The translations under genes and the position numbers were made by a program. Shown piece after piece: positions 13,010 to 32,057 of a DNA stretch of 64,000 nt (positions within the stretch are counted from its first letter, which is position 1; every line of letters starts with the position of its first letter). Source of the stretch: Deltaproteobacteria bacterium (GTDB lineage: Bacteria > Desulfobacterota > Binatia > Binatales > Binataceae); the NCBI GenBank assembly GCA_021817345.1, contig JAKAVC010000025.1:4454-68453 (forward strand). The letters run 5' to 3'. The notes below the pieces were generated by a model. The model was not told the origin of the DNA, searched no databases, and saw nothing but the letters and a program-made list of their open reading frames with translations.

Positions 13010-13756
13010 TCAATGCTCGGCCTTGACGGCCTCCGTGGCTTCCCGTTCCGAGGCGTGAAACAGCCACTGGTCGACCATCGAGACGGCCGACTCCGGATTC
13101 ATCGTGGCCCTCGGCATAAACAGGAATTCGATCATGAGCCCGTTCAACGCCGAAAGGATGAAACCTGCGGCGTCCTCGGGCGTAAAGCCGCTCGCGCAGA
13201 CTCCGCGATGCTGAGCGCGCGAGATTAGCTCGACTAACATGTTCCGGTATCCGCTGTAGAGCCGCATGATCTGCTCGCCCAGCCCTTCGGAAAGGCGCTG
13301 CTCGCGCAGCATCTGGGCCAGGAAGAAGCGCACCGAATTGGCGTGGTCGCGCACAAAGAGCAGGTAGAACTCGACCAGCCTCAGGATCTGATGGCGCTCG
13401 TCGAGCATCCGCGATTCTTCGGCAAAGTCGATGAAATAAGGCTCCAACAGCCGGTTCAGGACCGCCAGGAAAAGTTCTTCCTTGGTTTTGAAATGCCAGA
13501 AAATCAGGGCCTTGCTGACTCGCGCCTCGCGCGCGACTTCCGACATCGAAGTCTCATGGAAGCCGCGGTTGGCGAAAAGTTGCGTCGCAGCCTTTAGAAT
13601 CTCGTCGCGCGAGTCCTGCGACTGCTGTCCGTGGCTTTCCTGCGACTGTCCCTTGAGTTGAGATCCAACCATGCTAAGGAAATGGTCCCGCGGCATTCGC
13701 CGACCCTCGGACGCGCCGCTCAGGCCTTCCGGCCTCGATCGAAGCGCCCTTCCCAT
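13010..13756 (-). CDS. TetR/AcrR-family transcriptional regulator
   Basis: HTH region FANRGFHETSMSEVAREARVSKALIFWHFKTKEELF. The true start is likely an internal Met (MPRDH or MVGSQ). Confidence 0.7.
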   Translation of the reverse strand: MGRALRSRPEGLSGASEGRRMPRDHFLSMVGSQLKGQSQESHGQQSQDSRDEILKAATQLFANRGFHETSMSEVAREARVSKALIFWHFKTKEELFLAVLNRLLEPYFIDFAEESRMLDERHQILRLVEFYLLFVRDHANSVRFFLAQMLREQRLSEGLGEQIMRLYSGYRNMLVELISRAQHRGVCASGFTPEDAAGFILSALNGLMIEFLFMPRATMNPESAVSMVDQWLFHASEREATEAVKAEH

Positions 13757-13898
13757 AAACCCGTCTAATCATTACGGGGATCGGCAAGGATGCCTAACCT
13801 ATCGGTCAAGGTTTAACTTTATTTCCATCGCGGGGAAAGTCAATAGATGACAAAATACCGCGAAGATTGGCGGGCTGGAGGCCTCCGATTCGCCGATT

Positions 13899-14912
13899 CT
13901 ACCCCGCGAGCGCGATCTCCGCGCCGGTGCGAGCCGACGATTCCCGGGCCGCCTCAATAAGCCGAAGCGCGGTCGATACTTCCCTGATGTTCCGAAGCGC
14001 GGCTGCCGAGCCCGGACCCTCCCCTATCGCCTGCTCGAATTCCGCCGCAACCCCGGCGAACCATGCCGAGTGATAGCTGTCGTCGGGCGCGTCAACGACC
14101 GAAAGATCCTCAGTCCTGCCGCCTCGCTCGGTCAGGATGAGGCGGTCGCCCTCGATCTCAAGCGCCGCGCGCTCGCCGTAAAGCGATGCCGAGGTGCGTC
14201 TGACCGGCGCGCGCCACGACATATGCGAGCGGCCAATCCGCCCGCTCGAAAACCTGACCCAAAGATCGGCGACATCCTCGACCTCGCCCTCCCTGCCGAC
14301 GCCGAGATGCGCCGATACCCCAAGCGGCGCGTCGCCGCCCATCAGCGACTGCATCAGGTACGACACGTGCCATCCGTGATCGACGAGGATTCCGCCGCCG
14401 AGCGCGCCGGCCGCGCGCCAGCTTCCCGGTCCGCCGGCGGGCTGGGTCCTCAGCCGTTCGATATTCAGCAGCGTAAGCGCGCCGAGCCTGCCCGACGCAA
14501 CAAGTTCGAGCGCGCGCCGATAACTCGGCGAATGCTTCCAGTTATGCACGCACATCAGCACGCGCGAGACGCGCGCCGCCATTTCAGCGAGCGCGGTGAA
14601 TTCACCGATACCGAGGCAGAGCGGTTTCTCGCACAGCACGTGCGCGCCGGCTTCGAGCGCCGCCCGGATAGCGGGAGCGTGAAGCGCCGGCGGGCTCGCT
14701 ATATCGATGAAGTCGGGCGACTCACCCGCTAGCATCAATTCGAGGTCGTCATAGACGCGGACGTTATTCGCAAGCCGCATCGCCAGATGACGCCGCTCGG
14801 AGAGCGGGTCGTGAACCGCGACGATGCTGACGCCGGGGCGCGAAAACCATCCTGGCAGATGGCCCCGGGCCGCAACCTCGCCGAAGCCGGAAATTACCCC
14901 GCGCAGTTTCAC
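13899..14912 (-). CDS. Gfo/Idh/MocA-family NAD(P)-dependent oxidoreductase
   Basis: N-terminal KLRGVISGFGEVAARGHLPGW Rossmann motif and an EKPL motif. The likely GTG start at 14912 overlaps the stop of the upstream LLM gene (GTGA). The ORF-track start at 14951 is also possible. Confidence 0.6.
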   Translation of the reverse strand: MKLRGVISGFGEVAARGHLPGWFSRPGVSIVAVHDPLSERRHLAMRLANNVRVYDDLELMLAGESPDFIDIASPPALHAPAIRAALEAGAHVLCEKPLCLGIGEFTALAEMAARVSRVLMCVHNWKHSPSYRRALELVASGRLGALTLLNIERLRTQPAGGPGSWRAAGALGGGILVDHGWHVSYLMQSLMGGDAPLGVSAHLGVGREGEVEDVADLWVRFSSGRIGRSHMSWRAPVRRTSASLYGERAALEIEGDRLILTERGGRTEDLSVVDAPDDSYHSAWFAGVAAEFEQAIGEGPGSAAALRNIREVSTALRLIEAARESSARTGAEIALAG

Positions 14913-15775
14913 ATCCAGGCGCGCGCGATATCCTCGAGCTCGCTCTCCCACTTGTCGGGCGCGAGACTCGGCGGAAACAGGACCAGGCGATGCGCTCCGG
15001 CGCGCTCATATTCGCGGGCGGCGGCGTGAGTGTCCTTGCCGCCCGCCGGTGCGAACACGGAGATCTCGATTTTGCCGAAATCACGGCCCGCCTCGGCGCA
15101 GAGCTTCCTCAGAGTCTGCAACTGCTCGGCAAGTTCGGCGGGCGACAGCATCAGCGGTCCCCATCCGTCGCCGATTGCAACCGTATTCTTCATTGCGCGC
15201 TCGCCGCCGGCGCCGATGCCGCCCGCTCCGATCAGGATTGGAGGATGCGGCTTCTGCGCGGGCTTCGGGTAGCTTCTGACCGGCGGGAACTTGACGAATT
15301 TGCCCTCGAAGCTGGGCTCGGGCCGGGTCCAGAGTTGCTTCATCGCGCGCACGTACTCGCGCGTCATCGGCCATCGCCGGCGAAAATCGACGCCCATTAT
15401 CTCGCTTTCGTCCTTGAGCCATCCCGCGCCGATACCGAAGATGAAGCGCCCGCCGGAATAATGATCGAGCGTGGCGACCTCCTTGGCGAGCAGGAGCGGG
15501 TTGCGTTCCGGAACCAGGCAGATTCCGGTGCCGAGCTTGATTTTGCTGGTCGCGGCGGCCGCCAGCGCGAGCGCCATGAACGGATCGGGCATGTGCGAGT
15601 AAACTTCCGGTATAACGCCGTCGCGGCTGGCCGGATAGGGCGTCACATGATGGACGGGGATTATCGGATGCTCGGGGATGAACAGCGAGTCGAAGCCAAG
15701 CTGCTCGCATTTGCGCGCAACCGGGCCGGGTTCGGCGGTGTACTCGGCGATAAACGCGAGAATTCCTATCTTCAT
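14909..15775 (-). CDS. LLM-class (luciferase-like) flavin/F420-dependent oxidoreductase
   Basis: 288 aa with a bacterial-luciferase-like pattern (GFDSLFIPEH, GTGICLVPERNPLLLAKEVATLDHYSGGRF). Confidence 0.6.
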   Translation of the reverse strand: MKIGILAFIAEYTAEPGPVARKCEQLGFDSLFIPEHPIIPVHHVTPYPASRDGVIPEVYSHMPDPFMALALAAAATSKIKLGTGICLVPERNPLLLAKEVATLDHYSGGRFIFGIGAGWLKDESEIMGVDFRRRWPMTREYVRAMKQLWTRPEPSFEGKFVKFPPVRSYPKPAQKPHPPILIGAGGIGAGGERAMKNTVAIGDGWGPLMLSPAELAEQLQTLRKLCAEAGRDFGKIEISVFAPAGGKDTHAAAREYERAGAHRLVLFPPSLAPDKWESELEDIARAWM

Positions 15776-15866
15776 GCGGCGCCTCCCGTGGCGAGGTTCA
15801 GATGGCGAGACCAGTTTTTAGCGCGAACCAGCGCCCTGCGCCATCGAGCGGCGCGCCCTCTCGCGT

Positions 15867-16373
15867 TCATCGCCAGCCGAAGAAATCCTTCGCGTAGATG
15901 AAGCGGCCGACGCCTGCGGCGCGCGCCGCCTGCTCGTCGATTTCCTGGTCACCGACCATCGTCGAGGCCGAAAGATCGACTCCATACATGGCGGCCAGTT
16001 CTTCGATCATCCCGGGCCGCGGCTTGCGGCATGCGCATCGGTCGGCGTCGTCGTGCGGGCAGACCATCCATCCGCTCAGGATTCCGCCCAGTTCTTCGTC
16101 GAGCCTCGCAAGCGCCGCCTCGACCTTCTCCATCGTGACCCGGCCGCGCTTGATGCCGGCCTGGTTGGTGACGACGAAAATCAGATGGTCGCGCATCGGG
16201 CCGAGCCTTTCGGCCACGCCGGGCAGGAGCCTGAGCACGACGTTTCCGTTCGCGTCGAGCGGAAGCTGGCGCGTCTCGTCCATCTCCACGAGCGTTCCGA
16301 CGAGGTCGCAGAAAAGGGCCTGGTTGCCGGCCGCTTCAGTCATCGCGGGCAGCCCCTTCAGGCGGCGCGCCAA
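15867..16373 (-). CDS. HAD-superfamily phosphatase, GmhB (D,D-heptose-1,7-bisphosphate phosphatase)-like
   Basis: DxD motif (FCDLVGTL), VTNQAGI, and a C-terminal GDQEIDEQAARAAGV. 16-nt overlap with the aminotransferase gene. Confidence 0.5.
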   Translation of the reverse strand: MARRLKGLPAMTEAAGNQALFCDLVGTLVEMDETRQLPLDANGNVVLRLLPGVAERLGPMRDHLIFVVTNQAGIKRGRVTMEKVEAALARLDEELGGILSGWMVCPHDDADRCACRKPRPGMIEELAAMYGVDLSASTMVGDQEIDEQAARAAGVGRFIYAKDFFGWR

Positions 16374-17728
16374 TCGACGTTGTCGCGCACGTAGGCGAAG
16401 ACTTCATCGAGGATGGCGGCGCCGGCTTCGGCCTGTTCTTCGGTGATCACCAGCGGCGGATTGATCCGCACGCGGGGAAAATAGCTCATCGTGAGCAGCC
16501 CGCGCTTGAGGGCTTCCTTGAAGATCACCTCAGTAACCTTGCGATTAAGCAGTTCGCCGGTCTTCTCGTCGCGCACTAGGTCCATCCCGATAAACAGGCC
16601 GCGTCCGCGCACGTCGCCGACGAACTCGTACTTCTCCTTGAGATCGAGCAACCTGCTGAGTAATGTCGTGCCGACCTTGCGCGAATTCTCGACCAGGTTC
16701 TCGGCGTTGATCGTTTTAATCGTCTCGGCGACCGCGACCGCCGCGAGCGGATTCCCGCCGTAACTCGACGACGACGCGCTGGGCTTGCCGAACGGCTCGG
16801 CCTTTCCGAGTTCGTCGCTGAGCAGCACGCCAGAGACCGGAAATCCCGAACCCATCCCTTTGCCGACCGTCATGATGTCGGGCTTGGCGCCGGAATGCTC
16901 GACGCCCCACCATTTCCCGGTGCGGGCGAATCCGGTGATCATCTCGTCGGCGACAAGCATCGCGCCAAGTTCCTTCGCAACCGACTTGATCGCGGGCAGC
17001 CAGTCGTCGGGCGGCACCACGTTGCCCGCGGTTCCCTGCATCGGCTCGACCAGAACCGCAGCGACCGCTCCGGCGGAGGAATTCTTTATCTGCTTGCGCG
17101 CAAATTCGACGCAGAAGAGCCCGCAGTGCGGATACTTCATCCGAAACGGGCATCGATAGCAGTCCGCGTACGGCACCTGGTAGCGTCCTCCGGGAAGCGG
17201 GCCGTAGCCCTGCTTGGATTCGTCGCCGATAAGCCCGATCACGCCGCCGGTTTTGCCGTGAAAGCCGCCCCAGAAGCTCACGACCTCGTATTTCTTGGTT
17301 ACGGAACGGGCCAGCCTGAGCGCGGCCTCAACGGCCTCGGCGCCGCCGCTATACAGATGCGCGCGGTTGAGCCCTGCGGGCGCGGCCTCGGCGAGCAGGC
17401 GCAGCGCCTCGGCGCGGCTCGCGTTGGCGAAGGTGCCGACAATAAGCCGGCGCGATTGTTTTTCGAGCGCCGCGGTGAACTCGGGATGCGCGTGGCCGAG
17501 GCTCGCGACCGCGACGCCGGCGAAAAAATCAACGTAGGTGTTGCCGTCCGCGTCGGTCAGCGTGGCGCCGTCGCCGTGGTCGAAAGCGACCTCGGCGAGT
17601 GAGGAGATTCGCTGGCGACCGGGGGCGATATAGCGCTGTTCCTGTTCGAATATCTCCCGCGACCTGGGTCCCGGGACCGGAGTTTTGATGCTTGGAAGTT
17701 TGGGTTTCGAAACTTGTGAAGTCGCCAT
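16358..17728 (-). CDS. class-III pyridoxal-phosphate aminotransferase, HpnO-like (aminobacteriohopanetriol synthase candidate)
   Basis: 456 aa with the AT-III pattern (FFAGVAVASLGHAHP, ADEMITGFARTGKWWG, TVGKGMGSGFPV with the Lys site). Located in the hpn neighbourhood. Confidence 0.6.
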   Translation of the reverse strand: MATSQVSKPKLPSIKTPVPGPRSREIFEQEQRYIAPGRQRISSLAEVAFDHGDGATLTDADGNTYVDFFAGVAVASLGHAHPEFTAALEKQSRRLIVGTFANASRAEALRLLAEAAPAGLNRAHLYSGGAEAVEAALRLARSVTKKYEVVSFWGGFHGKTGGVIGLIGDESKQGYGPLPGGRYQVPYADCYRCPFRMKYPHCGLFCVEFARKQIKNSSAGAVAAVLVEPMQGTAGNVVPPDDWLPAIKSVAKELGAMLVADEMITGFARTGKWWGVEHSGAKPDIMTVGKGMGSGFPVSGVLLSDELGKAEPFGKPSASSSSYGGNPLAAVAVAETIKTINAENLVENSRKVGTTLLSRLLDLKEKYEFVGDVRGRGLFIGMDLVRDEKTGELLNRKVTEVIFKEALKRGLLTMSYFPRVRINPPLVITEEQAEAGAAILDEVFAYVRDNVDWRAA

Positions 17729-17774
17729 CTAATGGCCCGCGAGACCGCTCCTTTCATACAAAACCGCTGCCGTC

Positions 17775-18599
17775 TCAACGCGTGCGGCGTATCAACCTCA
17801 TCGCCCGCCGCGCAATCGCGCGCGCCGCGGGCGCACGAACCTGGCTATAACTGGGCCAGTCATTAAAGTCGATAATCGCAAAACGTCCGCCACTCAAGAC
17901 CGCGTCTCCGCCCCACGCCTGCAGGCCGAGCGCCGCCGCCGCAACCGAGGCGGCCTCGGCAAGCTCGCGCGCGACGTTGGCGGCGACTTCGCCTTCCTCG
18001 CCCAGCACCGAGAAGTATTCGCCGCCGCTTACGCCATAAAACTTGACGACCCTTCCCTCGACGGCCTGCTGAACGTAAACCGTATGAACACCCCGGCGGG
18101 CGAACGCCCGGATCGTCTCGAGCAGCGGCGCCTTGCCGACCACCTTTTGCACGTCGTCGGGTCCAAGTGCGTGCAGGTCGCCGCGCTTGACGTAAACTCC
18201 GGCGTCGAGATCGAGTGGGGTCAGCGCCTTGAGATTGACCGGCTCGGCGGTGCCGAGGACGGCTCCGTCGGGCGTGGGCACACCGGCGCGCATCAGCCCA
18301 ATCCCGAGCAGGTCGCGATAGCAGTTGCGAATCGCGAGCGCCGTGTTGAGCGTCAGAACGCCGCGTGCCTCCATCTCGGCCACCCGCTTGAGCGCGGCCT
18401 CGCCCTGGCACATGACCAGCAGCAGGTCGGCGCCGACCGGGTCGGTTCCCGCGGCAAAAGTCTTCGCGTCAAGGGCCGAAGTTTCCACGCCGAGCAACGA
18501 AAGCTCGTGGAGCACGGCGTCCATGATTGCGGCATCAGCCTCGACCTTCCCTGGGGAGAACTCATGCTCGCGATAAATACCGATTGCGCGATGCGTCAT
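17775..18599 (-). CDS. ATP-grasp-like ligase (RimK/GshB-like fold), unknown substrate
   Basis: 274 aa with a pre-ATP-grasp-like N-terminus, GVPTP, a VYVQQAVEGRVVKFYGV nucleotide-binding-like segment, and a C-terminal AIIDFNDWPS (ExN-like). Remote call made by eye. Confidence 0.4.
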   Translation of the reverse strand: MTHRAIGIYREHEFSPGKVEADAAIMDAVLHELSLLGVETSALDAKTFAAGTDPVGADLLLVMCQGEAALKRVAEMEARGVLTLNTALAIRNCYRDLLGIGLMRAGVPTPDGAVLGTAEPVNLKALTPLDLDAGVYVKRGDLHALGPDDVQKVVGKAPLLETIRAFARRGVHTVYVQQAVEGRVVKFYGVSGGEYFSVLGEEGEVAANVARELAEAASVAAAALGLQAWGGDAVLSGGRFAIIDFNDWPSYSQVRAPAARAIARRAMRLIRRTR

Positions 18600-19306
18600 G
18601 CTTTGTCTCCCATCGTGGCGCGAGCCGCTTCGAGGTCGGACGCTTCGTCAACGTCTATCGCCTCGCTTAGTTCGATCGCGCCAAGCAGCAATCCCTTGTC
18701 CAGCAGCATGGCAAGAAACTGCCGCATCGCTCCGAGCCCGGCGGCGCGCGCATCGGCAACAAAATCGAAGATTCGTTGCGGTAAGTAGTAGATGCCGGCG
18801 GTGACGGTGGGGCACTGCCCGCCGCCCAGCCGGGTTATTGTCTGGTTTGTGGAAACCTCCGCGAAAAGCGGACGCTCGTCGCCCCGCCATCGGACGACCC
18901 CGAGCGCTCCGTCCATCGCGCGCTCCGAGGTCATCGCGCGCGCGCTTGAAACAAACCTGCGCATCTCGCCCGCCGGCATCACCGCGTCAACCGTGGCGAG
19001 CACGAAATATCCGGGCGCAAGCCGCTCGCCGAGCGTGAACAGCGACTCCATCGAGTTGGCCGTGTCACGCACGACAAGGTTCAGATATTCTGGCAACTCC
19101 ACCCGGCGTTCCTTAACCAGGCGCGCGGTTTCGGAATTCACCACCGCGAGCACCTCGCTCGCCCCGGCCTCGCGCAGCATCGCCGCCTGACGCGCGATAA
19201 GGGTCTTCGTGCCGAGCGTCACCAACGGCTTTGGGACGCCGCCCGTGCTGCTCCGGAGTCTTTCTCCCCGGCCAGCCGCGATAATTGCTCCTTGCAAGTT
19301 GGCTAC
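18596..19306 (-). CDS. sugar/alcohol-phosphate nucleotidyltransferase (MobA/GlmU-like NTP-transferase domain)
   Basis: N-terminal AIIAAGRGERLRSSTGGVPKPLVTLGTKTLI is the nucleotidyltransferase signature. The likely GTG start at 19306 abuts the stop of the upstream HAD gene. The ORF-track start at 19360 overlaps that gene. Confidence 0.55.
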   Translation of the reverse strand, partial: VANLQGAIIAAGRGERLRSSTGGVPKPLVTLGTKTLIARQAAMLREAGASEVLAVVNSETARLVKERRVELPEYLNLVVRDTANSMESLFTLGERLAPGYFVLATVDAVMPAGEMRRFVSSARAMTSERAMDGALGVVRWRGDERPLFAEVSTNQTITRLGGGQCPTVTAGIYYLPQRIFDFVADARAAGLGAMRQFLAMLLDKGLLLGAIELSEAIDVDEASDLEAARATMGDKA

Positions 19307-20040
19307 CACCGGATGGCGAGAAGCTCGTCGAGCGAGCCGATCACACAATCGGGAACGCACGGGGTTTCCACATCCTTGGGCCCACCATTGCCCGCGTCAA
19401 TGAGGATAGTGCGCATGCCAAGCCGATGGGCCGGGACGCAGTCCTTGAGCAGCGAGTCTCCAACCATCGCCGCCTCCCTGGCGCTTATCTGAAGTCTCGC
19501 GAGCGCCATCTCGAAAATTCGCGGGTCCGGCTTGAATATACCGACGCGCGTCGAGTCGAGCGCCACGTCGATTAGCGCTTCCATCCCGGCCTCTCCAAGC
19601 ACGGTCTCCAGATTCCCGTAGAAGTTTGATACCACCCCGAGCTTGAAGCGTGGCTTTAGTTCTTCGAGAAGCCGACGGCTGTGCTTGAGACCCGCGGAAG
19701 TCTGCTCGACGAAATCCGCGACGATACGCTCGGCAAGCCTCGCACGTCCTTCGCGCCCCATCTGTTCGAGGCTCTCCCTGACACGACGTGGGCCTTCCAT
19801 TCGCAGGCATTCGAGCTGCTTTCCAACCAGAAAGCCGGTCAATCCCGCAAGTCCGAGACCTTCGAGCGAAGCAGGCTGCGCGTAGCCGAGCCGCGTCGCG
19901 TCAGTGAAGGCTCTATCAAACTCCTCACGATGAAGCTCCAGGCCGGCTGAGCGATAACATCCGAGGAACCGATCAAGCCAATGCGAGGCGAGGTCGAGGG
20001 TGCCGCCAAAGTCGAACAGAATCGCGCGAAGCTTGGTCAC
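19303..20040 (-). CDS. HAD-IA family hydrolase/phosphatase
   Basis: N-terminal ILFDFGGTL (DxG motif), VVSNF, and GDSLLKD motif IV. It is the first gene of the 7-gene minus-strand operon. Confidence 0.6.
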   Translation of the reverse strand: MTKLRAILFDFGGTLDLASHWLDRFLGCYRSAGLELHREEFDRAFTDATRLGYAQPASLEGLGLAGLTGFLVGKQLECLRMEGPRRVRESLEQMGREGRARLAERIVADFVEQTSAGLKHSRRLLEELKPRFKLGVVSNFYGNLETVLGEAGMEALIDVALDSTRVGIFKPDPRIFEMALARLQISAREAAMVGDSLLKDCVPAHRLGMRTILIDAGNGGPKDVETPCVPDCVIGSLDELLAIRW

Positions 20041-20180
20041 TTTGTGGCCCAGTTTATCAACCGGCGCAGAGACGCTCCAGAAAGAGCCAAATTAAGGCTT
20101 TGCCGACATCGAGTACGTCTGGCATCTTTGAAGAACCTGTTATCGAACGCTAGCACGTCGACGGTCCCGGAGACTCTGAT

Positions 20181-20882
20181 TTGGGTTACATTGCTGTTAA
20201 ATCCAACGCCTTGCGCGCGTTCTCGCTGGTATTGCTTTGGCTTGTTTTCCCCGTCGCAACCCTCGCCGCCCCATCCGCGGCCCCGGGTGAAAGCACGATC
20301 CGCAGCCTCCTCGCCGCGATGAGAGCCTACGCTCAGGCCAGGACGCCCGCTGAAAGGGCGGCGGCTGCCGCTAAAGTAAGCCGCCGCCTCGCCCTCCGAA
20401 CGGTGGCGCAGGAATCCCTTGGCACCCAATGGCAAAAGCTGAACCGTGCCGAGCGCGACCGCTTCGCGGCACTCTTCGAACGTTCGGTGGAAAGCCTCGC
20501 CTACCCGCGTGCGGCGCGGGCACTTGCGCAAATCAAAGTCAATTATCTTCGGGAAACCGTGAAAGGCCGCGAGCGGTTCGTCCACACGACGGTGACACGA
20601 CCCGAGGGCGGGACGCTTCCGGTCGATTACACACTCACCAAGCAGGACGGCCGCTGGACAGTTGCCGACGTAAGCCTCGACGGGGAGAGTCTCGCAAAAG
20701 CGGTTCGGACCCGCATTCAGAAGGCTCTTAACGAGGAAGGCTACGCGAAGCTCGTGGCCGACCTCAAAAAGCACGTGGAACAGGGGAATTCCGCCAGTTC
20801 CGGAGCCAACGCGCGGTCGTCCGGAAGGGACGGTGCGGACAAAGCACTTTCCGATCGGTCAGTCCAAGAGCCTGCGCGTTGA
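20181..20882 (+). CDS. MlaC/Ttg2D-family periplasmic lipid-binding protein (HpnM-like)
   Basis: Signal peptide, about 230 aa, tolerance-to-toluene Ttg2D-like composition. In other hopanoid producers HpnM is a Ttg2D homologue. TTG start. Confidence 0.45.
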   Translation: MGYIAVKSNALRAFSLVLLWLVFPVATLAAPSAAPGESTIRSLLAAMRAYAQARTPAERAAAAAKVSRRLALRTVAQESLGTQWQKLNRAERDRFAALFERSVESLAYPRAARALAQIKVNYLRETVKGRERFVHTTVTRPEGGTLPVDYTLTKQDGRWTVADVSLDGESLAKAVRTRIQKALNEEGYAKLVADLKKHVEQGNSASSGANARSSGRDGADKALSDRSVQEPAR

Positions 20883-20954
20883 TTTAACACCTGTTTTCAT
20901 CTAAGAAACTTGGTTCTATAACCGTAAGTAATAGGCGGTTAACCAGGAATTCAC

Positions 20955-22151
20955 TTGATCGAGACAGCATTAGTGACTGCGCCGCCACGCGGCGGCGAGG
21001 CGATTTTCGGACGCCCGCTGCTCGAACGGCTTCTGGCCAGCTGCGAACGTGTCGGTATCAAGCGCTTTTTCATCCAGGCAACGGCTGAAGAACGCGAACA
21101 GCTTGCAAGGTCGATGGGTCGGTTTGCGGGACGACCCGAGGTGCGGGTGGTTGACTCGTTCGAGGAGCTGTTGAACGGCCCGAACCGAATTGACCCCTCA
21201 GCGCCGTGCCTCGCGCTCAATGGAAATCTGGTGATTTCGTCGTGGTTCCTGAACCGGATCGTCGCCGAGGGCGAGCATCAGGGGGGCCGGGTGACGACGA
21301 TGCTGAGCGCGGACCCGGAGCGCGCGGGTTCTATCGCGATTGGTCCGGTCGCCGAGTTTGTGCGTGCGGGGGTGGCGGCAGGCACCTCCGCCCGGACCGC
21401 ATCGTGTCTGCCGTTCGCGCTCAACGGACGTCCGGAGGATCGCGAGGAAGCCGAGATGCGCCTTGCTTGCTCGCTCAAGCAGGAGACGGCCGCCACGGAC
21501 GCCTTCCTTGCGCGCCATCTCGATCGCAACCTGTCGTGGCGAATCAGCGTACGGCTCGCGCGTATCCGCGGCGTGACGGCGAACCTCGTTACGGTCGCAA
21601 ACACCGCCGTGGGATTGTTGTGCGGATGGATGTTCGCGTCGCCGTCGTATTGGGTGCGGATGGCGGCGGCGATTTTGTTCCTGGTCTCAATCACGGTTGA
21701 CGGGGTGGACGGCGAGATCGCGCGGCTCACGATGACGGAAAGTAAATTCGGCGGGATGCTCGACAAGGTCACCGACAATGTCGTGCATGTCGCGATTTTT
21801 GCGGGAATTTTTGTCGGTTGCTATAGGACGTCGGGCAGCGCAGCCTATTTATATCTGATTCCGGTCGTGCTCATTGGCTTCTCGCTGTGCGCTATCGCGA
21901 CTTATCGGGCGTTTCGGGTGCACGGTGCCGACGCCGAAGAATGGATTTCAAGGGTGGACAGGACCAGCGGGCGCGATTTTGCCTACCTGCTGGTGCTGCT
22001 CGCGGCCGTTAACCGTTTGAACTATTTCGCCTGGGGTGTCGCATTCGGTACTTACGTGTTCGCCTTCGGCCTGATGTGGCTTACCCAATATCGCTGGGGG
22101 CGAGCGGAAACTGGCGCTGGCCCAAATAGTGCGCCAGCGGAGGAACTATGA
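20955..22151 (+). CDS. fusion protein: N-terminal degenerate NTP-transferase-like domain plus C-terminal CDP-alcohol phosphatidyltransferase domain
   Basis: A perfect CDP-OH phosphotransferase motif DG-x2-AR-x8-G-x3-D-x3-D (VDGVDGEIARLTMTESKFGGMLDKVTD) with flanking TM helices. The N-terminal 180 aa loosely resemble a nucleotidyltransferase domain (ALVTAPPRGGEAIFGRPLLERLL). The overall architecture resembles IPCT/DIPPS-type fusions. TTG start. Confidence 0.55.
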   Translation: MIETALVTAPPRGGEAIFGRPLLERLLASCERVGIKRFFIQATAEEREQLARSMGRFAGRPEVRVVDSFEELLNGPNRIDPSAPCLALNGNLVISSWFLNRIVAEGEHQGGRVTTMLSADPERAGSIAIGPVAEFVRAGVAAGTSARTASCLPFALNGRPEDREEAEMRLACSLKQETAATDAFLARHLDRNLSWRISVRLARIRGVTANLVTVANTAVGLLCGWMFASPSYWVRMAAAILFLVSITVDGVDGEIARLTMTESKFGGMLDKVTDNVVHVAIFAGIFVGCYRTSGSAAYLYLIPVVLIGFSLCAIATYRAFRVHGADAEEWISRVDRTSGRDFAYLLVLLAAVNRLNYFAWGVAFGTYVFAFGLMWLTQYRWGRAETGAGPNSAPAEEL

Positions 22152-23473
22152 AAAAGCCGCGAATTCTGCTGGTTCAGCCGACGACCGTTCATCTGGACGG
22201 AACGCCGCACAAGACCCGATGGCGGCTGATCATCGGGCTCATGATCCCATTGATGGCGGGACTTACACCGCCCGAGTATGACGTAACGCTCTGTGACGAA
22301 CGCCTGGAGGACCTCGACTTCGACGCGGGATGGGATCTGGTCGGAATGACCACCACCATCGGAGCGTCGTTGCGCGCCTATCAACTCGCCGACGAGTTCC
22401 GAAAGCGCGGAATTCCGGTCGTGATGGGCGGCTTTCATGCCACGCTCCAGACCGAGGAGGCGCTAAAACACGCCGACGCCGTGGTCCAGGGCGAGGCCGA
22501 CCTGGTCTGGGCCGAACTGCTCCAGGACTGGCGCGACGGCAAGCTCAAGCGCATCTACAAGGGCGACAAGCTTCACGACCTAAAAAATCTGCCGCGCCCG
22601 CGCCATGAACTGCTTAAGCTCAACCGCTATCTGTTCAAGGCGCTTCCGATCCAGGCAAGCCGGGGATGCCCTTATCGATGCTCGTTCTGCGAGATCCCGG
22701 TCTTCTATGAAGGTTCGTACCGTACCCGTCCGGTCGGCGATATCATCGAGGAAATCAAGAAAAACATCGAGATAACCGGCTTTCGCCGCTTCCAGTTCAT
22801 CGACGACCAGATCACCGGCAAGCATCGCTTCGCCAAGGAACTGTTCAAGGCGCTCGCCCCGCTCAACATCCGCTTCTCGTGCCTGTGGACGGTCAATTCC
22901 AACCACGACGAGGAGCTGCTCGATCTCGCGGCCAAGGCGGGAATCTTTCACGTCAATATCGGCGTGGAATCGATTAGCCAGGACAGCCTGCTGTCGATGA
23001 ACAAGATCCAGAACCACGCCAAGGAATACAAAAAGCTGCTCAAGCGCCTCGAGCAGCACGGCATTTACTACTCGCTCAACTTCCTGTTCGGGCTCGACGA
23101 GGACCATCCCAAGATCTTCGACGACACGCTGCAATTCCTGCACGAGGTGCGCGCCCCCGAGGCGTTCTTCAACACCGTCACGCCGCGCAAGGGCACCCCG
23201 ATGCGCGCGAAGCTGGAGGCCGAGGACCGCGTCATCATCCCCGACGCCGACATGTACACCAACAACTTCCGCTGCATGTTCATCCCGAAGAAACTCAGCC
23301 CGCAGCAGGTCGAGGAAGGCGTCTGGCGATGCACCAAGGAATTCTACTCGTTCAGGTCGATGTTTAAACGCCTGCTGATGCCGCCGAATAAGTACACCTG
23401 GCAGGGCCTGACCGAGAACATGCTGTTCTGGTACGGCGCGAAGCGTCAGATCGATCCGGTCGATTACTATTGA
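22148..23473 (+). CDS. B12-binding domain radical SAM enzyme (class B; HpnJ/HpnP/HpnR-like candidate)
   Basis: N-terminal cobalamin-binding Rossmann domain, then QASRGCPYRCSFCEIP (CxxxCxxC), 441 aa. The start overlaps the upstream stop (ATGA). Confidence 0.7.
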   Translation: MKKPRILLVQPTTVHLDGTPHKTRWRLIIGLMIPLMAGLTPPEYDVTLCDERLEDLDFDAGWDLVGMTTTIGASLRAYQLADEFRKRGIPVVMGGFHATLQTEEALKHADAVVQGEADLVWAELLQDWRDGKLKRIYKGDKLHDLKNLPRPRHELLKLNRYLFKALPIQASRGCPYRCSFCEIPVFYEGSYRTRPVGDIIEEIKKNIEITGFRRFQFIDDQITGKHRFAKELFKALAPLNIRFSCLWTVNSNHDEELLDLAAKAGIFHVNIGVESISQDSLLSMNKIQNHAKEYKKLLKRLEQHGIYYSLNFLFGLDEDHPKIFDDTLQFLHEVRAPEAFFNTVTPRKGTPMRAKLEAEDRVIIPDADMYTNNFRCMFIPKKLSPQQVEEGVWRCTKEFYSFRSMFKRLLMPPNKYTWQGLTENMLFWYGAKRQIDPVDYY

Positions 23474-23557: not shown

Positions 23558-24034
23558 TCATCCGCCGCCGCGCACGCGCCTGTCTGCCGCCTGCGTCTTC
23601 AACCCCTCCAGGTGCAGATAGGAGTAAAGCGCCGAAAAAGCCGCGGCGTGAAAGGCAGCCGCGTACGCGGACAGAAGCCGGAGCTGCGCAATCCGACCCG
23701 CGCCGCGCCCGGTTAGAAGCCGCCAAACTCCGAAGAGCGAGAAAACCACGAGCGCGTAAGCCAGCATCCAGAGCGGCAGCCGGCGCATCCATCGCGGAGC
23801 GCCGCGCGTGGCCGCCTTCCACTTGTCACGCCATCGCAGACCGCGCGTCATCGCGTGCCCGGCGAGAAACGCCGGCATCCACACGATGAAGACCGCAACG
23901 AAGGCCGCCACGGTCAAATCGAAGAGCATCGGTGTCCAGATTCCGGCGAGCGAGACTACATGCAGGCACGCGCTTGTGACCGCGCCCGCTCCCGAAAGAA
24001 CCAGAAACGGCACGGCCCACGATTGGCGCGACAT
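23558..24034 (-). CDS. hypothetical small integral membrane protein
   Basis: 158 aa with 3-4 hydrophobic helices and no recognisable family. Confidence 0.3.
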   Translation of the reverse strand: MSRQSWAVPFLVLSGAGAVTSACLHVVSLAGIWTPMLFDLTVAAFVAVFIVWMPAFLAGHAMTRGLRWRDKWKAATRGAPRWMRRLPLWMLAYALVVFSLFGVWRLLTGRGAGRIAQLRLLSAYAAAFHAAAFSALYSYLHLEGLKTQAADRRVRGGG

Positions 24035-24137
24035 GCAACCCTTCTAGCGGCTCATGAACCGGCGTTCCAGACCGCCCTGCTCCATCAAGCCGCCCGCAGC
24101 CGAACCCGGTACGCGACGATGAAGTGTCGCCGACCCG

Positions 24138-24539
24138 TTATTTAGCGGCGCCCTCGGGCGCGGACGCGAAGCCGCCGCATGCGGGGCTCGGCCGGATACG
24201 GTTTCGGTTGTCCACGTGAACAACCGTCGGCACATGACGGCGCGCCTCCGCCTCGTCCATCGCGCCGAACGTCGCGATTATAACGATGTCACCGGGGGTT
24301 CCGCGAAGCGCCGCCGCGCCGTTGAGCGCCACCTCGCCCGAGCCGCGCGGTGCCTCTATCGCGTAGGTTTCGAGCCGTTCTCCGTTGCTGACGTTCCAGA
24401 CGTGAACCTGTTCGAACGGGATAATTCCCGCCGCGTCGAGCAGGTCGCGGTCGATGCCGATACTTCCTTCGTAATCGGGGTCCGCTCCGGTGAGGGTCAG
24501 GCGATGGAGCTTCGCCCGCAACATGATCCTGGTTGCCAC
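24138..24539 (-). CDS. panD: aspartate 1-decarboxylase
   Basis: [24 protein letters not shown] with the Gly-Ser self-cleavage site, and a [14 protein letters not shown] motif. Confidence 0.8.
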
Positions 24540-24588
24540 CTTGCCTCCGAAAAATCAGTCGGTACGAAAATGCGCTCGCGTCGAACGT

Positions 24589-25470
24589 TTATGCCCGCAG
24601 GCGCTCGCGTGAAACCGCCGAGGCGCGCAGCACGATGTTGTCGATCAGCCGGGTGTTGCCGACCCGCGCGGCGATTGCGAGCAGAATCGGCCGTTCTAGT
24701 GAAACTGCGGCCTCCAGCGTCTCGGCGTCGACCGCCTCCACGTATTCGATTTTGACCGCCTCGTTCTGTTCGAGCACCGCCCGCGCCGCCGCGGCCAGAT
24801 CTGCGGGCGTGCGCGCGTCCCACAGGTATTTCTCGCGCGCGACCATCAGTGCGCGGCTCAGCGCCAGCGCCTGCTTTCGCTCGTGCGGGTCGAGGTAGGC
24901 GTTTCGCGACGACATCGCAAGCCCGTCGGCCTCGCGCACGATCGGCATCGGAACGATCTCGACATCGAAATTCAAATCGGCGACCATCCGCTCGATCGCG
25001 CGAAGCTGCTGGAAATCCTTCTCGCCAAAGAACGCCAGATGCGGTTTGGTTATGTTGAAGAGCTTTGCAACCACGGTGGTCACGCCGCGGAAATGCCCCG
25101 GACGCGAGCGCCCGCACAGCCCCCTGGTCAGCTCCGTGACCTCAACCCAAGTCTGAGCTCCCGGCGGATACATCTCGGCCGCATCGGGCGCATAAACCGC
25201 ATCCACCGCAACCGTTTCCATCATCGCGCAGTCGCGTTCGAAGTTGCGCGGATACTTTGCGAGATCCTCGTTCGGCCCGAACTGGGTTGGATTCACGAAC
25301 ACCGAGGCGATCACGACATCGGCGCGCCGGCGCGCCTCGCGCATCAGGCTCAGATGTCCCTCGTGCAGAAAGCCCATCGTGGGCACGAAGCCAATCCGTG
25401 CTCCGCGCATCCGCGCGGCCTCGGAATAGAGCGTCATTTCACGCGCGCTGTTGATTATTTCCACGGTCAC
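24589..25470 (-). CDS. panC: pantoate--beta-alanine ligase
   Basis: [16 protein letters not shown] (HxGH motif), FGEKDFQQ, and [15 protein letters not shown]. The GTG start overlaps the panB stop (GTGA). The ORF-track N-terminal extension is not used. Confidence 0.8.
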
Positions 25471-32053: not shown

Positions 32054-32057
32054 CTGC

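What the first reader, a model, noticed from the sequence alone, without database searches (positions are those of the whole stretch)
13899..20040. Seven-gene co-directional operon inside the hopanoid locus: a candidate new head-group pathway
Seven minus-strand genes have overlapping or abutting stops and starts (GTGA at 14912, a 16-nt overlap at 16358-16373, a 4-nt overlap at 18596-18599, GTG at 19306).

The genes, in order of transcription, are:
- HAD-IA hydrolase
- NTP-transferase
- ATP-grasp-like ligase
- class-III aminotransferase (HpnO-like)
- GmhB-like HAD phosphatase
- LLM flavin oxidoreductase
- Gfo/Idh/MocA dehydrogenase

This module sits between hpnH/TetR and the hpnM-like operon. 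HpnO alone explains aminobacteriohopanetriol. The co-transcribed dehydrogenase, nucleotidyltransferase, two phosphatases and ligase are not part of any described hopanoid pathway.

The enzyme set (dehydrogenase, transaminase, NTP-activation, phosphatase, ligase) resembles inositol-to-aminocyclitol or DIP-like phosphodiester solute logic. Together with the downstream CDP-alcohol phosphotransferase, this suggests an undescribed hopanoid polar head group or a compatible-solute pathway.
Basis: partly seen in the sequence, partly recalled or inferred. Interest (0 to 1): 0.75.

Follow-up and report, generated by a model that had tools for sequence, protein, structure and literature searches.

The report
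Amino-inositol lipid head-group operon
The seven-gene operon is real, but it is probably not a hopanoid pathway: its core matches an uncharacterised, inositol-linked lipid head-group gene cluster already proposed in gut Bacteroides, here extended by a dehydrogenase and a transaminase that could put an amino group on the inositol.

Summary
**Observation.** It is confirmed, with small coordinate corrections. Seven tightly packed minus-strand genes lie at 13899-20040 in a Binataceae (Ca. Binatota) MAG.

**Family calls.**
- Six of the seven hold in Pfam/NCBIfam.

**What it resembles.** HAD-IA, NTP-transferase and ATP-grasp, plus the divergent CDP-alcohol phosphotransferase, are homologous to the "putative alternative inositol-lipid cluster" of Bacteroides vulgatus/Prevotella (Heaver 2022).
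- That cluster usually sits next to myo-inositol-phosphate synthase (MIPS).
- The four functions also occur as fused proteins.
- Versions that add the class-III aminotransferase and the Gfo/Idh/MocA dehydrogenase occur in four other lineages: two delta-proteobacterial MAGs, Desulfarculales, Elusimicrobiota and Bdellovibrionales. Two of these have MIPS inside the cluster.
- The phosphotransferase most resembles archaeal IPCT-DIPPS.

**Hopanoid link.** Hopanoid genes flank the module in only 17 of 40 Binatia species and in no other lineage.

**Best reading (about 0.5).** A CDP-activated inositol or amino-inositol phospholipid head-group pathway.

**Rivals.** A hopanoid head group, or a DIP-like solute.

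**Novelty and limits.** New variant of a known, still putative kind. The substrate, the product and the ATP-grasp chemistry (kinase or ligase) are all inferred.

The parts
19303..20040 (-). Gene 1: HAD-IA family hydrolase (245 aa, GTG start). Motif I reads DFGGT, so it lacks the usual second Asp.
   Evidence: Pfam Hydrolase/HAD_2. NCBIfam REG-2-like/CTE7 HAD-IA, below cut-off. 29% identity, E 4e-30, to the B. vulgatus cluster HAD. Present in 47/47 Binatia loci. Motif alignment.
18596..19309 (-). Gene 2: nucleotidyltransferase (237 aa from GTG 19309) with a canonical AAGRGERL...PKPL motif.
   Evidence: Pfam NTP_transf_3, 44 bits against cut-off 27. Weak NCBIfam hit to the IPCT part of IPCT/DIPPS (E 1.9e-6). 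Nearest solved relatives are MurU and LicC. 30% identity, E 4e-28, to the B. vulgatus cluster NTP-transferase. Found fused to the ATP-grasp in six 50%-cluster representatives and in the L059 ORF.
17775..18599 (-). Gene 3: ATP-grasp fold protein of an unnamed family (274 aa). Kinase or ligase is not resolved.
16358..17728 (-). Gene 4: class-III (omega-type) PLP aminotransferase (456 aa).
   Evidence: Pfam Aminotran_3, 318 bits. Below every NCBIfam equivalog cut-off. Nearest solved relatives are GABA-AT type enzymes and archaeal racemases. 47-63% identical orthologues sit directly after the ATP-grasp gene in L052, L053, L055, L062 and nearby in L067.
15867..16343 (-). Gene 5: HAD-IIIA, GmhB / histidinol-phosphatase-like (158 aa from ATG 16343). 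Motif I reads DLVGT.
   Evidence: NCBIfam TIGR01656, 93 bits against cut-off 84. Nearest solved relatives are heptose 1,7-bisphosphate phosphatases. Present in 43/47 Binatia loci and absent outside Binatia. Motif.
14909..15775 (-). Gene 6: luciferase-like (LLM) oxidoreductase of the Rv2161c-type F420 family (288 aa).
   Evidence: Pfam Bac_luciferase, 196 bits. NCBIfam TIGR03619, 255 bits against cut-off 167. Present in 28/43 Binatia loci.
13899..14912 (-). Gene 7: Gfo/Idh/MocA NAD(P) dehydrogenase (337 aa from GTG 14912).
   Evidence: Pfam, three domains. iolG model 64 bits against cut-off 355. Scyllo-inositol dehydrogenase 5e-16 among generic hits. Present in 20/42 Binatia loci. Follows the aminotransferase in L052, L053, L055, L062 and precedes MIPS in L067.
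20955..22151 (+). Divergent unit: two-domain CDP-alcohol phosphotransferase (398 aa). Residues 1-170 form a nucleotidyltransferase-like domain without a GxGxR motif. The C-terminal part is the membrane domain, with an intact D249xxDGxxARx8GxxxDxxxD274 motif.
   Evidence: Pfam CDP-OH_P_transf. Best NCBIfam hit is the DIPPS part of IPCT/DIPPS (E 3.7e-21), then AIP and PIP synthases. AF2 pLDDT 82; best Foldseek match is A. fulgidus IPCT-DIPPS 4mnd (3.9e-10, 455 columns). 47% identity over 394 aa to the Desulfarculales orthologue. Present in 41/42 Binatia loci. Motif read and invariants.
22148..23473 (+). Divergent unit: B12-binding-domain radical SAM enzyme (441 aa, CPYRCSFC cluster motif). It is the most conserved gene of the locus.
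   Evidence: Pfam B12-binding (weak) and Radical_SAM. No NCBIfam equivalog: HpnJ 74 against 578, HpnR 50 against 650, AprD4 54 against 500. Nearest solved relatives are 9ccb and AprD4 (5.9e-9). 84-90% identity across Binatia, 39/40 loci. 41% orthologue in the same operon in L055.
20181..20882 (+). MlaC-family periplasmic lipid-binding protein ('hpnM-like'). It is a variable part of the locus.
   Evidence: Pfam MlaC. HpnM model 62 bits against cut-off 160. Present in 9/45 Binatia loci and absent in Ca. Binatus.
20041..20180 (.). 140-bp divergent intergenic region between the two units. It is the presumed shared promoter region.
   Evidence: Read from the sequence. No consensus promoter or palindrome above chance.
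13010..13756 (-). TetR-family regulator between the operon and hpnH. It is a neighbour, not shown to be part of the module.
   Evidence: Pfam TetR_N. A promoter-like site at 13843-13816 precedes it, within chance expectation. Present in 18/41 Binatia loci, always together with hpnH.

Best explanation
The seven genes, together with the divergent CDP-alcohol phosphotransferase and radical SAM genes, form one module. The module builds and installs a polar alcohol head group, most likely myo-inositol-derived and aminated, onto a membrane lipid through a CDP-activated intermediate.

**Proposed route (every step is inferred):**
1. An inositol phosphate made by MIPS, which is encoded elsewhere in this genome, enters the pathway.
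2. The Gfo/Idh/MocA dehydrogenase oxidises it at a ring hydroxyl.
3. The class-III aminotransferase aminates the keto group.
4. The ATP-grasp protein, acting as an ITPK-like kinase, and a HAD protein together set the phosphate at the position to be activated. The named analogy is ADP-heptose synthesis: HldE kinase, then GmhB phosphatase, then HldE adenylyltransferase.
5. The nucleotidyltransferase makes the CDP-alcohol.
6. The IPCT-DIPPS-like membrane enzyme transfers the phospho-alcohol to a lipid alcohol such as diacylglycerol.
7. The radical SAM enzyme, the LLM oxidoreductase and the GmhB-like HAD tailor the product. The last two are Binatia-specific.

**What is shown:** the gene families, the folds, the homology to the Bacteroides cluster, the gene fusions and the co-occurrence with MIPS.

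**What is not shown:** substrates, order of steps and product.
For: **1. Homology of the core to the B. vulgatus alternative inositol-lipid cluster.**
- tblastn E-values are 4e-28 (NTP-transferase), 4e-36 (ATP-grasp) and 4e-30 (HAD).
- The cluster is described in PMC9246714.
- L069 gene order is NTP - ATP-grasp - CDP-OH - LPG_synthase_TM - HAD - MFS - MIPS.

**2. Inositol link.**
- MIPS lies within 10 kb in 13 of 24 loci of the type without the aminotransferase.
- In L067 the order is Gfo-MIPS-grasp-CDPOH.
- In L052 MIPS lies directly upstream of HAD-NTP-grasp-AT-Gfo.
- A Binatia genome (L045) carries a MIPS about 5 kb beyond the radical SAM gene.

**3. Fusion proteins tie the steps together.**
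- NTP-transferase-ATP-grasp: six cluster representatives plus the L059 ORF.
- HAD-NTP-ATP-grasp: P0338.
- ATP-grasp-CDP-OH_P_transf: P0363.

**4. The phosphotransferase looks inositol-type.**
- It is closest to the DIPPS part of IPCT/DIPPS, then to AIP synthase and PIP synthase.
- Its model matches IPCT-DIPPS over its whole length.
- Its catalytic motif is intact.

**5. Lipid context in relatives.**
- LPG_synthase_TM, MMPL and an outer-membrane efflux protein occur in related loci.
- MlaC is here, and plsY is in L085.
- B. vulgatus and P. veroralis make inositol lipids without the B. thetaiotaomicron genes (PMC9246714).

**6. Kinase reading of the ATP-grasp.**
- The family has D-F-N where the ITPK sequences printed have D-x-N. 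The ligases PsnB and ArgX printed there have E-x-N.
- The only recurrent weak Pfam hit is Ins134_P3_kin, in 9 of 33 members.
- The gene is always next to, or fused with, the nucleotidyltransferase. That enzyme needs a phosphorylated substrate.

**7. Aminotransferase and dehydrogenase.** They are added as a pair in four other lineages.
Against: - No MIPS and no other inositol gene lies in the 64-kb window.
- The dehydrogenase is missing within 10 kb in about half of Binatia species (20/42). The carbonyl substrate of the aminotransferase may therefore not come from it.
- Known inosose aminotransferases (StsC type) belong to another PLP family (own knowledge). This aminotransferase groups with GABA-type omega-transaminases and racemases.
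- The dehydrogenase is far below the iolG cut-off (64 against 355).
- Both HAD proteins lack the Asp+2 general acid of ordinary HAD phosphatases, so 'phosphatase' is not assured.
- The Bacteroides cluster itself has never been tested experimentally.
- No amino-inositol phospholipid was found in the literature searched.
Confidence: 0.5

Rival explanations
1. Hopanoid head-group pathway. The module makes a CDP-activated aminocyclitol that the phosphotransferase attaches to a bacteriohopanepolyol hydroxyl. Alternatively, the aminotransferase is HpnO and makes aminobacteriohopanetriol.
For: - In the window the operon is co-directional with, and 142 bp upstream of, TetR-hpnH-polyprenyl synthase-ADH-shc-dxr-hpnCDE.
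- The same arrangement is kept at about 60-65% identity in Ca. Binatus and in 17 Binatia species.
- An MlaC/HpnM-like gene lies beside it.
Against: - hpn genes are absent within 10 kb in 23 of 40 Binatia species and in all 30 non-Binatia loci.
- There is no hpnG in the window.
- The HpnM, HpnJ and HpnR models are far below cut-off.
- The aminotransferase stays with the ATP-grasp gene where no hpn genes are near.
- Homologous clusters are frequent in Bacteroidales, which are not known hopanoid producers (own knowledge).
- No phosphorylated hopanoid is known to me.
Confidence: 0.12
2. Soluble phosphodiester compatible solute of the di-myo-inositol-phosphate (DIP) type, possibly aminated. The nucleotidyltransferase acts as IPCT, the membrane enzyme as DIPPS and a HAD as the DIPP phosphatase.
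For: - The phosphotransferase has the IPCT-DIPPS two-domain architecture, and its best sequence and structure matches are to DIPPS.
- The set MIPS, cytidylyltransferase, CDP-alcohol transferase and phosphatase is the DIP gene set (own knowledge).
Against: - The N-terminal nucleotidyltransferase-like domain lacks the GxGxR motif.
- Neighbours in relatives are lipid-handling proteins: LPG_synthase_TM, MMPL and MlaC.
- The Bacteroides species that carry the homologous cluster make inositol lipids.
- The hosts are soil and gut organisms rather than hyperthermophiles (record titles). DIP is known as a solute of hyperthermophiles (own knowledge).
- The ATP-grasp, aminotransferase and radical SAM have no role in DIP synthesis.
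Confidence: 0.12
3. A head group that is not inositol-derived in Binatia. For example, the aminotransferase may aminate a sugar or triose phosphate directly, giving an aminopolyol phosphate of the serinol-phosphate or aminopentanetetrol type. That product would then be CDP-activated and transferred to a lipid.
For: - The aminotransferase belongs to the omega-transaminase group, which typically aminates aldehydes or simple ketones (own knowledge).
- The dehydrogenase is dispensable locally in half of the Binatia loci.
- No MIPS lies in the window.
- The biosynthesis of aminopentanetetrol phospholipids is not described in the papers found.
Against: - The homologous clusters with aminotransferase in L052 and L067 contain MIPS.
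- The phosphotransferase groups with inositol-phosphate enzymes.
- Binatia do carry MIPS (L045).
- Nothing ties the module to organisms known to make aminopentanetetrol lipids.
Confidence: 0.15

Closest known systems
Bacteroides (Phocaeicola) vulgatus / Prevotella 'putative alternative inositol lipid cluster' (Heaver et al. 2022, PMC9246714): BVU_RS13095 NTP-transferase, BVU_RS13105 CDP-alcohol phosphatidyltransferase, BVU_RS13115 HAD hydrolase, next to MIPS
   Same: - The NTP-transferase, the HAD-IA and the unmentioned ATP-grasp gene between them are homologous (29-33% identity, E 1e-28 to 1e-36).
- A CDP-alcohol phosphotransferase is always adjacent.
- Function is unproven in both.
   Different: - The window adds a class-III aminotransferase, a Gfo/Idh/MocA dehydrogenase, a GmhB-like HAD, an LLM oxidoreductase and a radical SAM enzyme.
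- Its phosphotransferase is a different subtype with an N-terminal nucleotidyltransferase-like domain. Similarity to the Bacteroides enzyme is only 26% over 109 aa.
- It has no LPG_synthase_TM gene and no adjacent MIPS.
- The host is a soil Binatia MAG.
Archaeal/Thermotoga IPCT-DIPPS (di-myo-inositol phosphate synthesis; PDB 4mnd) and AF2299
   Same: - Both have a two-domain architecture: a cytoplasmic nucleotidyltransferase-fold domain plus a CDP-alcohol phosphotransferase membrane domain.
- IPCT-DIPPS is the best sequence-profile and structure match.
- The catalytic motif is intact.
   Different: - The score is far below the equivalog cut-off (76 against 580 bits).
- The N-terminal domain lacks the nucleotide-binding GxGxR signature, and a separate canonical nucleotidyltransferase is encoded in the operon.
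- The context points to lipid rather than solute.
ADP-heptose pathway (HldE kinase, GmhB HAD-IIIA phosphatase, HldE adenylyltransferase)
   Same: - The same enzyme triad occurs: an ATP-dependent kinase candidate, a HAD protein (one of them GmhB-like) and a nucleotidyltransferase.
- As in HldE, the parts occur fused.
   Different: - The candidate kinase is an ATP-grasp rather than a ribokinase-type enzyme.
- The HADs lack Asp+2.
- The end user is a CDP-alcohol phosphotransferase, not a glycosyltransferase.
- This is an analogy only. Nothing was tested.
scyllo-Inosamine formation in aminocyclitol antibiotic and rhizopine pathways (inositol dehydrogenase plus StsC-type aminotransferase)
   Same: A Gfo/Idh/MocA-family dehydrogenase is paired with a PLP aminotransferase. 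In relatives this pair sits next to MIPS.
   Different: - The aminotransferase is class III, not the DegT/StsC family (own knowledge for the latter).
- There are no glycosyltransferase or amidinotransferase genes.
- The product is predicted to be CDP-activated.
Hopanoid side-chain genes HpnO, HpnJ, HpnM
   Same: All are adjacent to shc and hpnH. The superfamilies match: class-III aminotransferase, B12 radical SAM and MlaC.
   Different: - The HpnJ and HpnM models are far below cut-off.
- The module occurs without hpn genes in most genomes examined.
- hpnG is absent.

Membership tests
B. vulgatus-like alternative inositol-lipid cluster (Heaver 2022) | Homologue of the NTP-transferase BVU_RS13095 | tested here: met
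   tblastn of L069:9253-9963 against the window: 30% identity over 241 aa, E 3.8e-28, at 18602-19297.
B. vulgatus-like alternative inositol-lipid cluster (Heaver 2022) | Homologue of the HAD hydrolase BVU_RS13115 | tested here: met
   29% identity over 251 aa, E 3.7e-30, at 19312-20061. The same DxGGT motif I occurs in both.
B. vulgatus-like alternative inositol-lipid cluster (Heaver 2022) | Adjacent CDP-alcohol phosphatidyltransferase homologous to BVU_RS13105 | tested here: inconclusive
   It has the same Pfam family and is adjacent. Similarity is only 26% over 109 aa (E 2.5e-9), and the domain architecture differs.
B. vulgatus-like alternative inositol-lipid cluster (Heaver 2022) | Location next to a MIPS gene | tested here: not met
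   No MIPS lies in the 64-kb window, nor within 10 kb in 49 of 50 Binatia loci. The feature is met in the related loci L052 and L067.
B. vulgatus-like alternative inositol-lipid cluster (Heaver 2022) | Production of inositol lipids by the host | not testable with these tools
   The host is an uncultured MAG and no lipid data are available.
IPCT-DIPPS (DIP synthesis) | CDP-alcohol phosphotransferase motif DxxDGxxARx8GxxxDxxxD | tested here: met
   D249...D274 read. The residues are invariant in 32 sequences.
IPCT-DIPPS (DIP synthesis) | Score at or above the NCBIfam NF041135 equivalog cut-off | tested here: not met
   75.6 bits against a cut-off of 580. Only the DIPPS part matched.
IPCT-DIPPS (DIP synthesis) | Active N-terminal cytidylyltransferase domain (GxGxR signature) | tested here: not met
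   The fold is nucleotidyltransferase-like, but the sequence reads APPRGGEAIFGRP with no GxGxR.
ATP-grasp superfamily | Three-domain ATP-grasp fold | tested here: met
ATP-grasp superfamily | Match to a curated ATP-grasp sequence family | tested here: not met
   No Pfam or NCBIfam hit for the window protein. There are only weak Ins134_P3_kin hits in 9 of 33 relatives, with best E 0.023.
Inositol-phosphate kinases of the ITPK type | Kinase rather than ligase chemistry | not testable with these tools
Hopanoid biosynthesis (Hpn) genes | HpnM equivalog (TIGR03481) | tested here: not met
   62.1 bits against a cut-off of 160.1.
Hopanoid biosynthesis (Hpn) genes | HpnJ / HpnR equivalogs for the radical SAM protein | tested here: not met
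   HpnJ 73.7 against 577.6, and HpnR 49.9 against 650.
Hopanoid biosynthesis (Hpn) genes | HpnO identity of the aminotransferase | not tested
   No HpnO model or reference sequence was available in the tools. Context argues against it.
Hopanoid biosynthesis (Hpn) genes | Conserved synteny with shc/hpnH | tested here: inconclusive
   17 of 40 Binatia species have it, and 0 of 30 non-Binatia loci do.
myo-Inositol 2-dehydrogenase (IolG) | Score at or above the TIGR04380 cut-off | tested here: not met
   64.2 bits against a cut-off of 355. Only superfamily membership holds.
F420-dependent LLM oxidoreductases, Rv2161c family (TIGR03619) | Score at or above the cut-off | tested here: met
   255.2 bits against a cut-off of 166.9. 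Cofactor use was not tested.

The most novel reading that the evidence does not exclude
The module makes a phospholipid class not yet described. Its head group would be an amino-inositol (inosamine), zwitterionic like phosphatidylethanolamine.
- It would be built by a kinase / HAD / cytidylyltransferase relay in which an ATP-grasp protein is a bacterial inositol-phosphate kinase.
- The same relay, without the amination, would be the missing mechanism of the 'alternative' inositol-lipid pathway of gut Bacteroides and Prevotella.
- In Binatia the product might further be coupled to hopanoid-rich membranes.
Probability: 0.3. Interest if true: 0.75.

Novelty: new variant of a known kind. Interest (0 to 1): 0.6.

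Why it matters
**Open question it touches.** Bacterial inositol lipids are considered rare. The 'alternative' pathway proposed for Prevotella and B. vulgatus has no tested mechanism.

**What the comparison adds:**
- The cluster always includes a conserved ATP-grasp protein that the 2022 paper did not discuss.
- The four core functions occur as fusion proteins.
- The ATP-grasp protein that marks the module has confirmed relatives in at least 597 species-level genomes. Binatia, Desulfobacterota, Elusimicrobiota, Bdellovibrionota and Bacteroidales are all represented among the 80 loci examined.
- A subset adds a dehydrogenase and a transaminase.

**Testable predictions:**
- Deleting the ATP-grasp gene in B. 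vulgatus should abolish inositol lipids.
- The extended version should yield an amine-bearing inositol head group.

**If true.** This would add a membrane lipid class. It would also give a biomarker for Binatia, an abundant uncultured soil lineage.

**Caution for annotation.** Adjacency to shc and hpnH is not enough to annotate genes as hopanoid-related.

Tried and rejected
- **Sequence-family searches for the ATP-grasp protein.** They gave nothing. Only the structure identified the fold.
- **The eighth abutting ORF (20037-20774, minus strand).** Rejected as a shadow of the MlaC gene.
- **Two context look-ups.** They failed because I gave stop-to-stop coordinates instead of true starts.
- **Promoter, terminator and inverted-repeat scans.** They found nothing above chance in the operon or in the divergent intergenic region.
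- **Literature searches.**
  - No amino-inositol phospholipid was found.
  - No hopanoid plus CDP-alcohol phosphotransferase link was found.
  - No follow-up on the alternative cluster was found.
  - Nothing was found on Binatota hopanoids.
- **Aminopentanetetrol head group.**
  - Considered because class-III transaminases aminate aldehydes, and because its biosynthesis is not described.
  - Kept only as a minor rival, because related clusters contain MIPS.
- **Phosphonolipid reading.** Considered because of the weak PbfA, PhpK and Sden_1164/1168 hits. Dropped because no PEP mutase is present.
- **Rest of the window.** It was searched for inositol genes and none were found.
- **HpnO.** A direct test was not possible for lack of a reference.

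Full report
**Origin and layout**

The ATP-grasp-like protein of the window is encoded, residue for residue, on contig DAHVPY010000067.1 of GCA_027318025.1. Its closest relatives are from Candidatus Binataceae / Binatus MAGs (lineage).

On the minus strand the window carries the following genes:
- an HpnA-like epimerase
- hpnE, hpnD, hpnC
- dxr
- shc
- a zinc alcohol dehydrogenase
- a polyprenyl synthase
- hpnH (393 bits against a cut-off of 225)
- a TetR regulator
- upstream of all these, the seven genes of the finding

A second unit is transcribed divergently from the operon: MlaC, a CDP-alcohol phosphotransferase and a B12-domain radical SAM enzyme (20181-23473).

**Check of the observation**

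The seven ORFs exist as described. An independent gene call on the public contig agrees.

Junctions read from the sequence:

|---|---|---|
| LLM stop / Gfo start | GTGA at 14912-14909 | correct |
| NTP-transferase stop / ATP-grasp start | ATGA at 18599-18596 | correct |
| HAD-IA stop / NTP-transferase start | GTG at 19309, 7-nt overlap | reader gave 19306 |
| Aminotransferase stop / HAD-IIIA start | ATG 16343 behind a GAAGGGG Shine-Dalgarno-like site, 14 nt after the stop | the 16-nt overlap needs the TTG start at 16373 |

An eighth abutting ORF (20037-20774) is a frame shadow of the MlaC gene. No promoter, terminator or palindrome stood out above chance.

**Family calls**

| Gene | Result |
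|---|---|
| Gfo/Idh/MocA | Pfam hit; only 64 bits on the iolG model against cut-off 355 |
| LLM | TIGR03619 F420 family, 255 bits against cut-off 167 |
| HAD-IIIA | GmhB / histidinol-phosphatase-like; TIGR01656 above cut-off; nearest structures are heptose bisphosphate phosphatases |
| Aminotransferase | Class III, 318 bits, below every equivalog cut-off; nearest structures are GABA-type transaminases and archaeal racemases |
| Nucleotidyltransferase | NTP_transf_3; nearest structures are MurU and LicC |
| HAD-IA | Pfam and NCBIfam HAD-IA hits |
| ATP-grasp | No sequence-family hit; AlphaFold model of pLDDT 82 is an ATP-grasp |

The refutation condition that the ATP-grasp and NTP-transferase calls fail is therefore not met. 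The ATP-grasp call passes only at the level of structure.

**What the module is related to**

A scan of one genome per species found at least 597 genomes with a relative of the ATP-grasp protein. The 80 best loci were fetched. Fifty of them are Binatia.

The other thirty include Phocaeicola vulgatus ATCC 8482, Duncaniella muris, Bacteroides graminisolvens and many Bacteroidales MAGs. They also include a Kapabacteria MAG, Desulfarculales, Syntrophobacteraceae, Elusimicrobiota and Bdellovibrionales.

In P. vulgatus the gene order is NTP-transferase, ATP-grasp, CDP-alcohol phosphotransferase, LPG_synthase_TM, HAD-IA, MFS, then MIPS. This is the 'putative alternative inositol lipid cluster' of Heaver et al. 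2022 (PMC9246714).
- The paper names the NTP-transferase, the phosphatidyltransferase and the HAD, and proposes a CDP-inositol route.
- It does not discuss the ATP-grasp gene.
- It states that the functions are unconfirmed.

The window proteins match the P. vulgatus NTP-transferase, ATP-grasp and HAD at 29-33% identity, with E-values of 4e-28, 4e-36 and 4e-30. I found no later paper that tests this cluster.

**Functional coupling of the core**

An exhaustive profile search found 317 clusters (at 50% identity) of the ATP-grasp family at E <= 1e-30. Among the best hits were these fusion proteins:
- six NTP-transferase-ATP-grasp fusions
- one HAD-NTP-transferase-ATP-grasp fusion (P0338)
- one ATP-grasp-CDP-alcohol phosphotransferase fusion (P0363)

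A continuous 517-codon NTP-transferase-ATP-grasp ORF is also visible in the DNA of L059. These four functions therefore act in one pathway.

**The extended version**

The aminotransferase and the Gfo/Idh/MocA dehydrogenase are absent from the Bacteroidales loci. They accompany the core in Binatia and in five other loci:

| Locus | Source | Gene order |
|---|---|---|
| L055 | Desulfarculales | radical SAM, sulfotransferase, CDP-OH transferase, LPG_synthase_TM, B12 radical SAM, HAD, NTP, ATP-grasp, aminotransferase, Gfo, MMPL; all on one strand |
| L052 | delta-proteobacterial MAG | MIPS, HAD, NTP, ATP-grasp, aminotransferase, Gfo |
| L067 | Bdellovibrionales | Gfo, MIPS, ATP-grasp, CDP-OH transferase, LPG_synthase_TM, (HAD, NTP), aminotransferase |
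| L053 | delta-proteobacterial MAG | same core with aminotransferase and Gfo |
| L062 | Elusimicrobiota | same core with aminotransferase and Gfo |

Two independent extended clusters thus contain MIPS. This is the main argument that inositol is the scaffold also where the amine-forming pair is present.

Binatia do have MIPS. L045 carries one about 5 kb beyond the radical SAM gene. The window and the other Binatia loci have none within reach.

**The phosphotransferase**

- Its catalytic motif D249xxDGxxARx8GxxxDxxxD274 is intact and invariant.
- Its best NCBIfam match is the DIPPS half of IPCT/DIPPS (E 3.7e-21). Next come archaetidylinositol-phosphate synthase and PIP synthase. All are far below cut-off.
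- Its model (pLDDT 82) matches A. fulgidus IPCT-DIPPS over the whole length. Residues 1-170 have a nucleotidyltransferase fold.
- That N-terminal domain lacks the GxGxR signature. The stand-alone NTP-transferase of the operon has it.
- The Desulfarculales orthologue is 47% identical over 394 residues. This two-domain subtype therefore belongs to the extended module. It differs from the shorter Bacteroides enzyme.

**Relation to hopanoids**

Frequency of each gene among Binatia species with enough flanking sequence:

| Gene | Present / loci with enough flank |
|---|---|
| HAD-IA | 47/47 |
| NTP-transferase | 48/48 |
| Aminotransferase | 44/47 |
| HAD-IIIA | 43/47 |
| Phosphotransferase | 41/42 |
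| Radical SAM | 39/40 |
| LLM | 28/43 |
| Dehydrogenase | 20/42 |
| TetR | 18/41 |
| hpnH | 17/40 |
| MlaC | 9/45 |

- Ca. Binatus keeps the full arrangement including shc, but has no MlaC.
- Another Binatia genome has a five-gene operon followed by unrelated genes, with plsY nearby.
- No non-Binatia locus has hpn genes within 10 kb.
- The MlaC gene is not an HpnM equivalog. The radical SAM protein is not HpnJ or HpnR.
- hpnG is not in the window.

I conclude that the link to hopanoid genes is a frequent, lineage-specific neighbourhood of two membrane-lipid gene sets. It is not evidence that the module modifies hopanoids. I could not test the aminotransferase against HpnO directly.

**Mechanism**

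Shown:
- the families and folds
- the homology
- the fusions
- the MIPS association

Inferred: a route in which an inositol phosphate is oxidised and transaminated, phosphorylated at the position to be activated, converted to a CDP-alcohol and transferred to a lipid alcohol.

The triad of kinase candidate, HAD and nucleotidyltransferase resembles the HldE/GmhB logic of ADP-heptose synthesis (own knowledge). One of the HADs is GmhB-like.

The kinase reading of the ATP-grasp rests on three points:
- its constant pairing and fusion with the nucleotidyltransferase
- a D-F-N metal motif like the D-x-N of the ITPK sequences printed, where the ligases PsnB and ArgX show E-x-N
- recurrent weak Ins134_P3_kin hits

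Both HAD proteins have D-x-(G/A/V)-G-T in motif I. They lack the Asp+2 of standard HAD phosphatases, so their chemistry is uncertain too.

The radical SAM enzyme is the most conserved gene of the locus, at 84-90% identity across Binatia. Its nearest solved relatives include the aminoglycoside diol-dehydratase AprD4 (5.9e-9). A tailoring role on the polyol is possible but untested.

**Rivals**

I considered three rival readings and give their weights in the report sections:
- a hopanoid head group
- a DIP-like solute
- a non-inositol aminopolyol head group

**Verdict**

The module is a new, extended variant of a published but uncharacterised inositol-lipid cluster. The product is unknown.

Noticed in passing
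window 19303-20040 and 15867-16343; related loci L052, L054, L055, L067, L069, L083, L085 for the HAD-IA, and 49 Binatia loci for the HAD-IIIA: Both HAD-family proteins of the operon lack the second Asp of motif I. The HAD-IA reads D-[FYL]-G-G-[TC] in the eight sequences aligned. The HAD-IIIA reads D-L-x-G-T in all 49 Binatia loci that carry it. Ordinary HAD phosphatases use that Asp as general acid, so these may not be simple phosphatases.
   Followed up: partly
proteins P0253, P0295, P0304, P0325, P0331, P0379, P0338, P0363; L059:3480-5033: Natural fusion proteins join NTP-transferase to ATP-grasp, HAD to NTP-transferase to ATP-grasp, and ATP-grasp to CDP-alcohol phosphotransferase.
   Followed up: yes
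window 22148-23473: The B12-domain radical SAM protein is 84-90% identical across Binatia species, while its neighbours are 42-81% identical. It matches no curated equivalog. Its nearest solved relatives are 9ccb and the aminoglycoside diol-dehydratase AprD4.
   Followed up: partly
window 1564-2469: A protein of the Pfam 'Carotenoid biosynthesis protein' family (PF04240) lies at the end of the hopanoid gene row, next to the HpnA-like epimerase. Its role there is unknown. The adjacent ORF at 808-1557 has no family hit.
   Followed up: no
window 30863-34674, with lower G+C at about 38000-44000: A phage-type integrase gene (30863-32053) and a DUF3631 gene (33082-34674) suggest an integrated mobile element. 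G+C drops to 0.59-0.62 nearby, against about 0.65 elsewhere.
   Followed up: no
window 40717-46103: A separate group of genes comprises two alpha/beta hydrolases, a second luciferase-like oxidoreductase and a Rieske ring-hydroxylating oxygenase alpha subunit. This looks like a degradation cluster unrelated to the finding.
   Followed up: no
L045:13377-17729: In one Binatia genome a TonB-dependent receptor with a CarboxypepD_reg domain, ExbB and TonB are inserted inside the operon, between the HAD-IIIA and LLM genes. Heaver et al. mention a carboxypeptidase-regulatory-like protein near both Bacteroides inositol clusters.
   Followed up: no
L055:2157-4531 and 13424-16195; L054:2344-6613: The Desulfobacterota versions of the cluster carry an extra radical SAM gene, a sulfotransferase and an MMPL transporter. 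L054 also carries an outer-membrane efflux protein. This hints at further modification and export of the product.
   Followed up: no
window 23558-29175; L001, L083: Pantothenate genes (panB, panC, panD and a type III pantothenate kinase) flank the radical SAM gene in the window and in Ca. Binatus. In L045, coaBC lies at the corresponding side. This is a conserved neighbourhood of unknown meaning.
   Followed up: no
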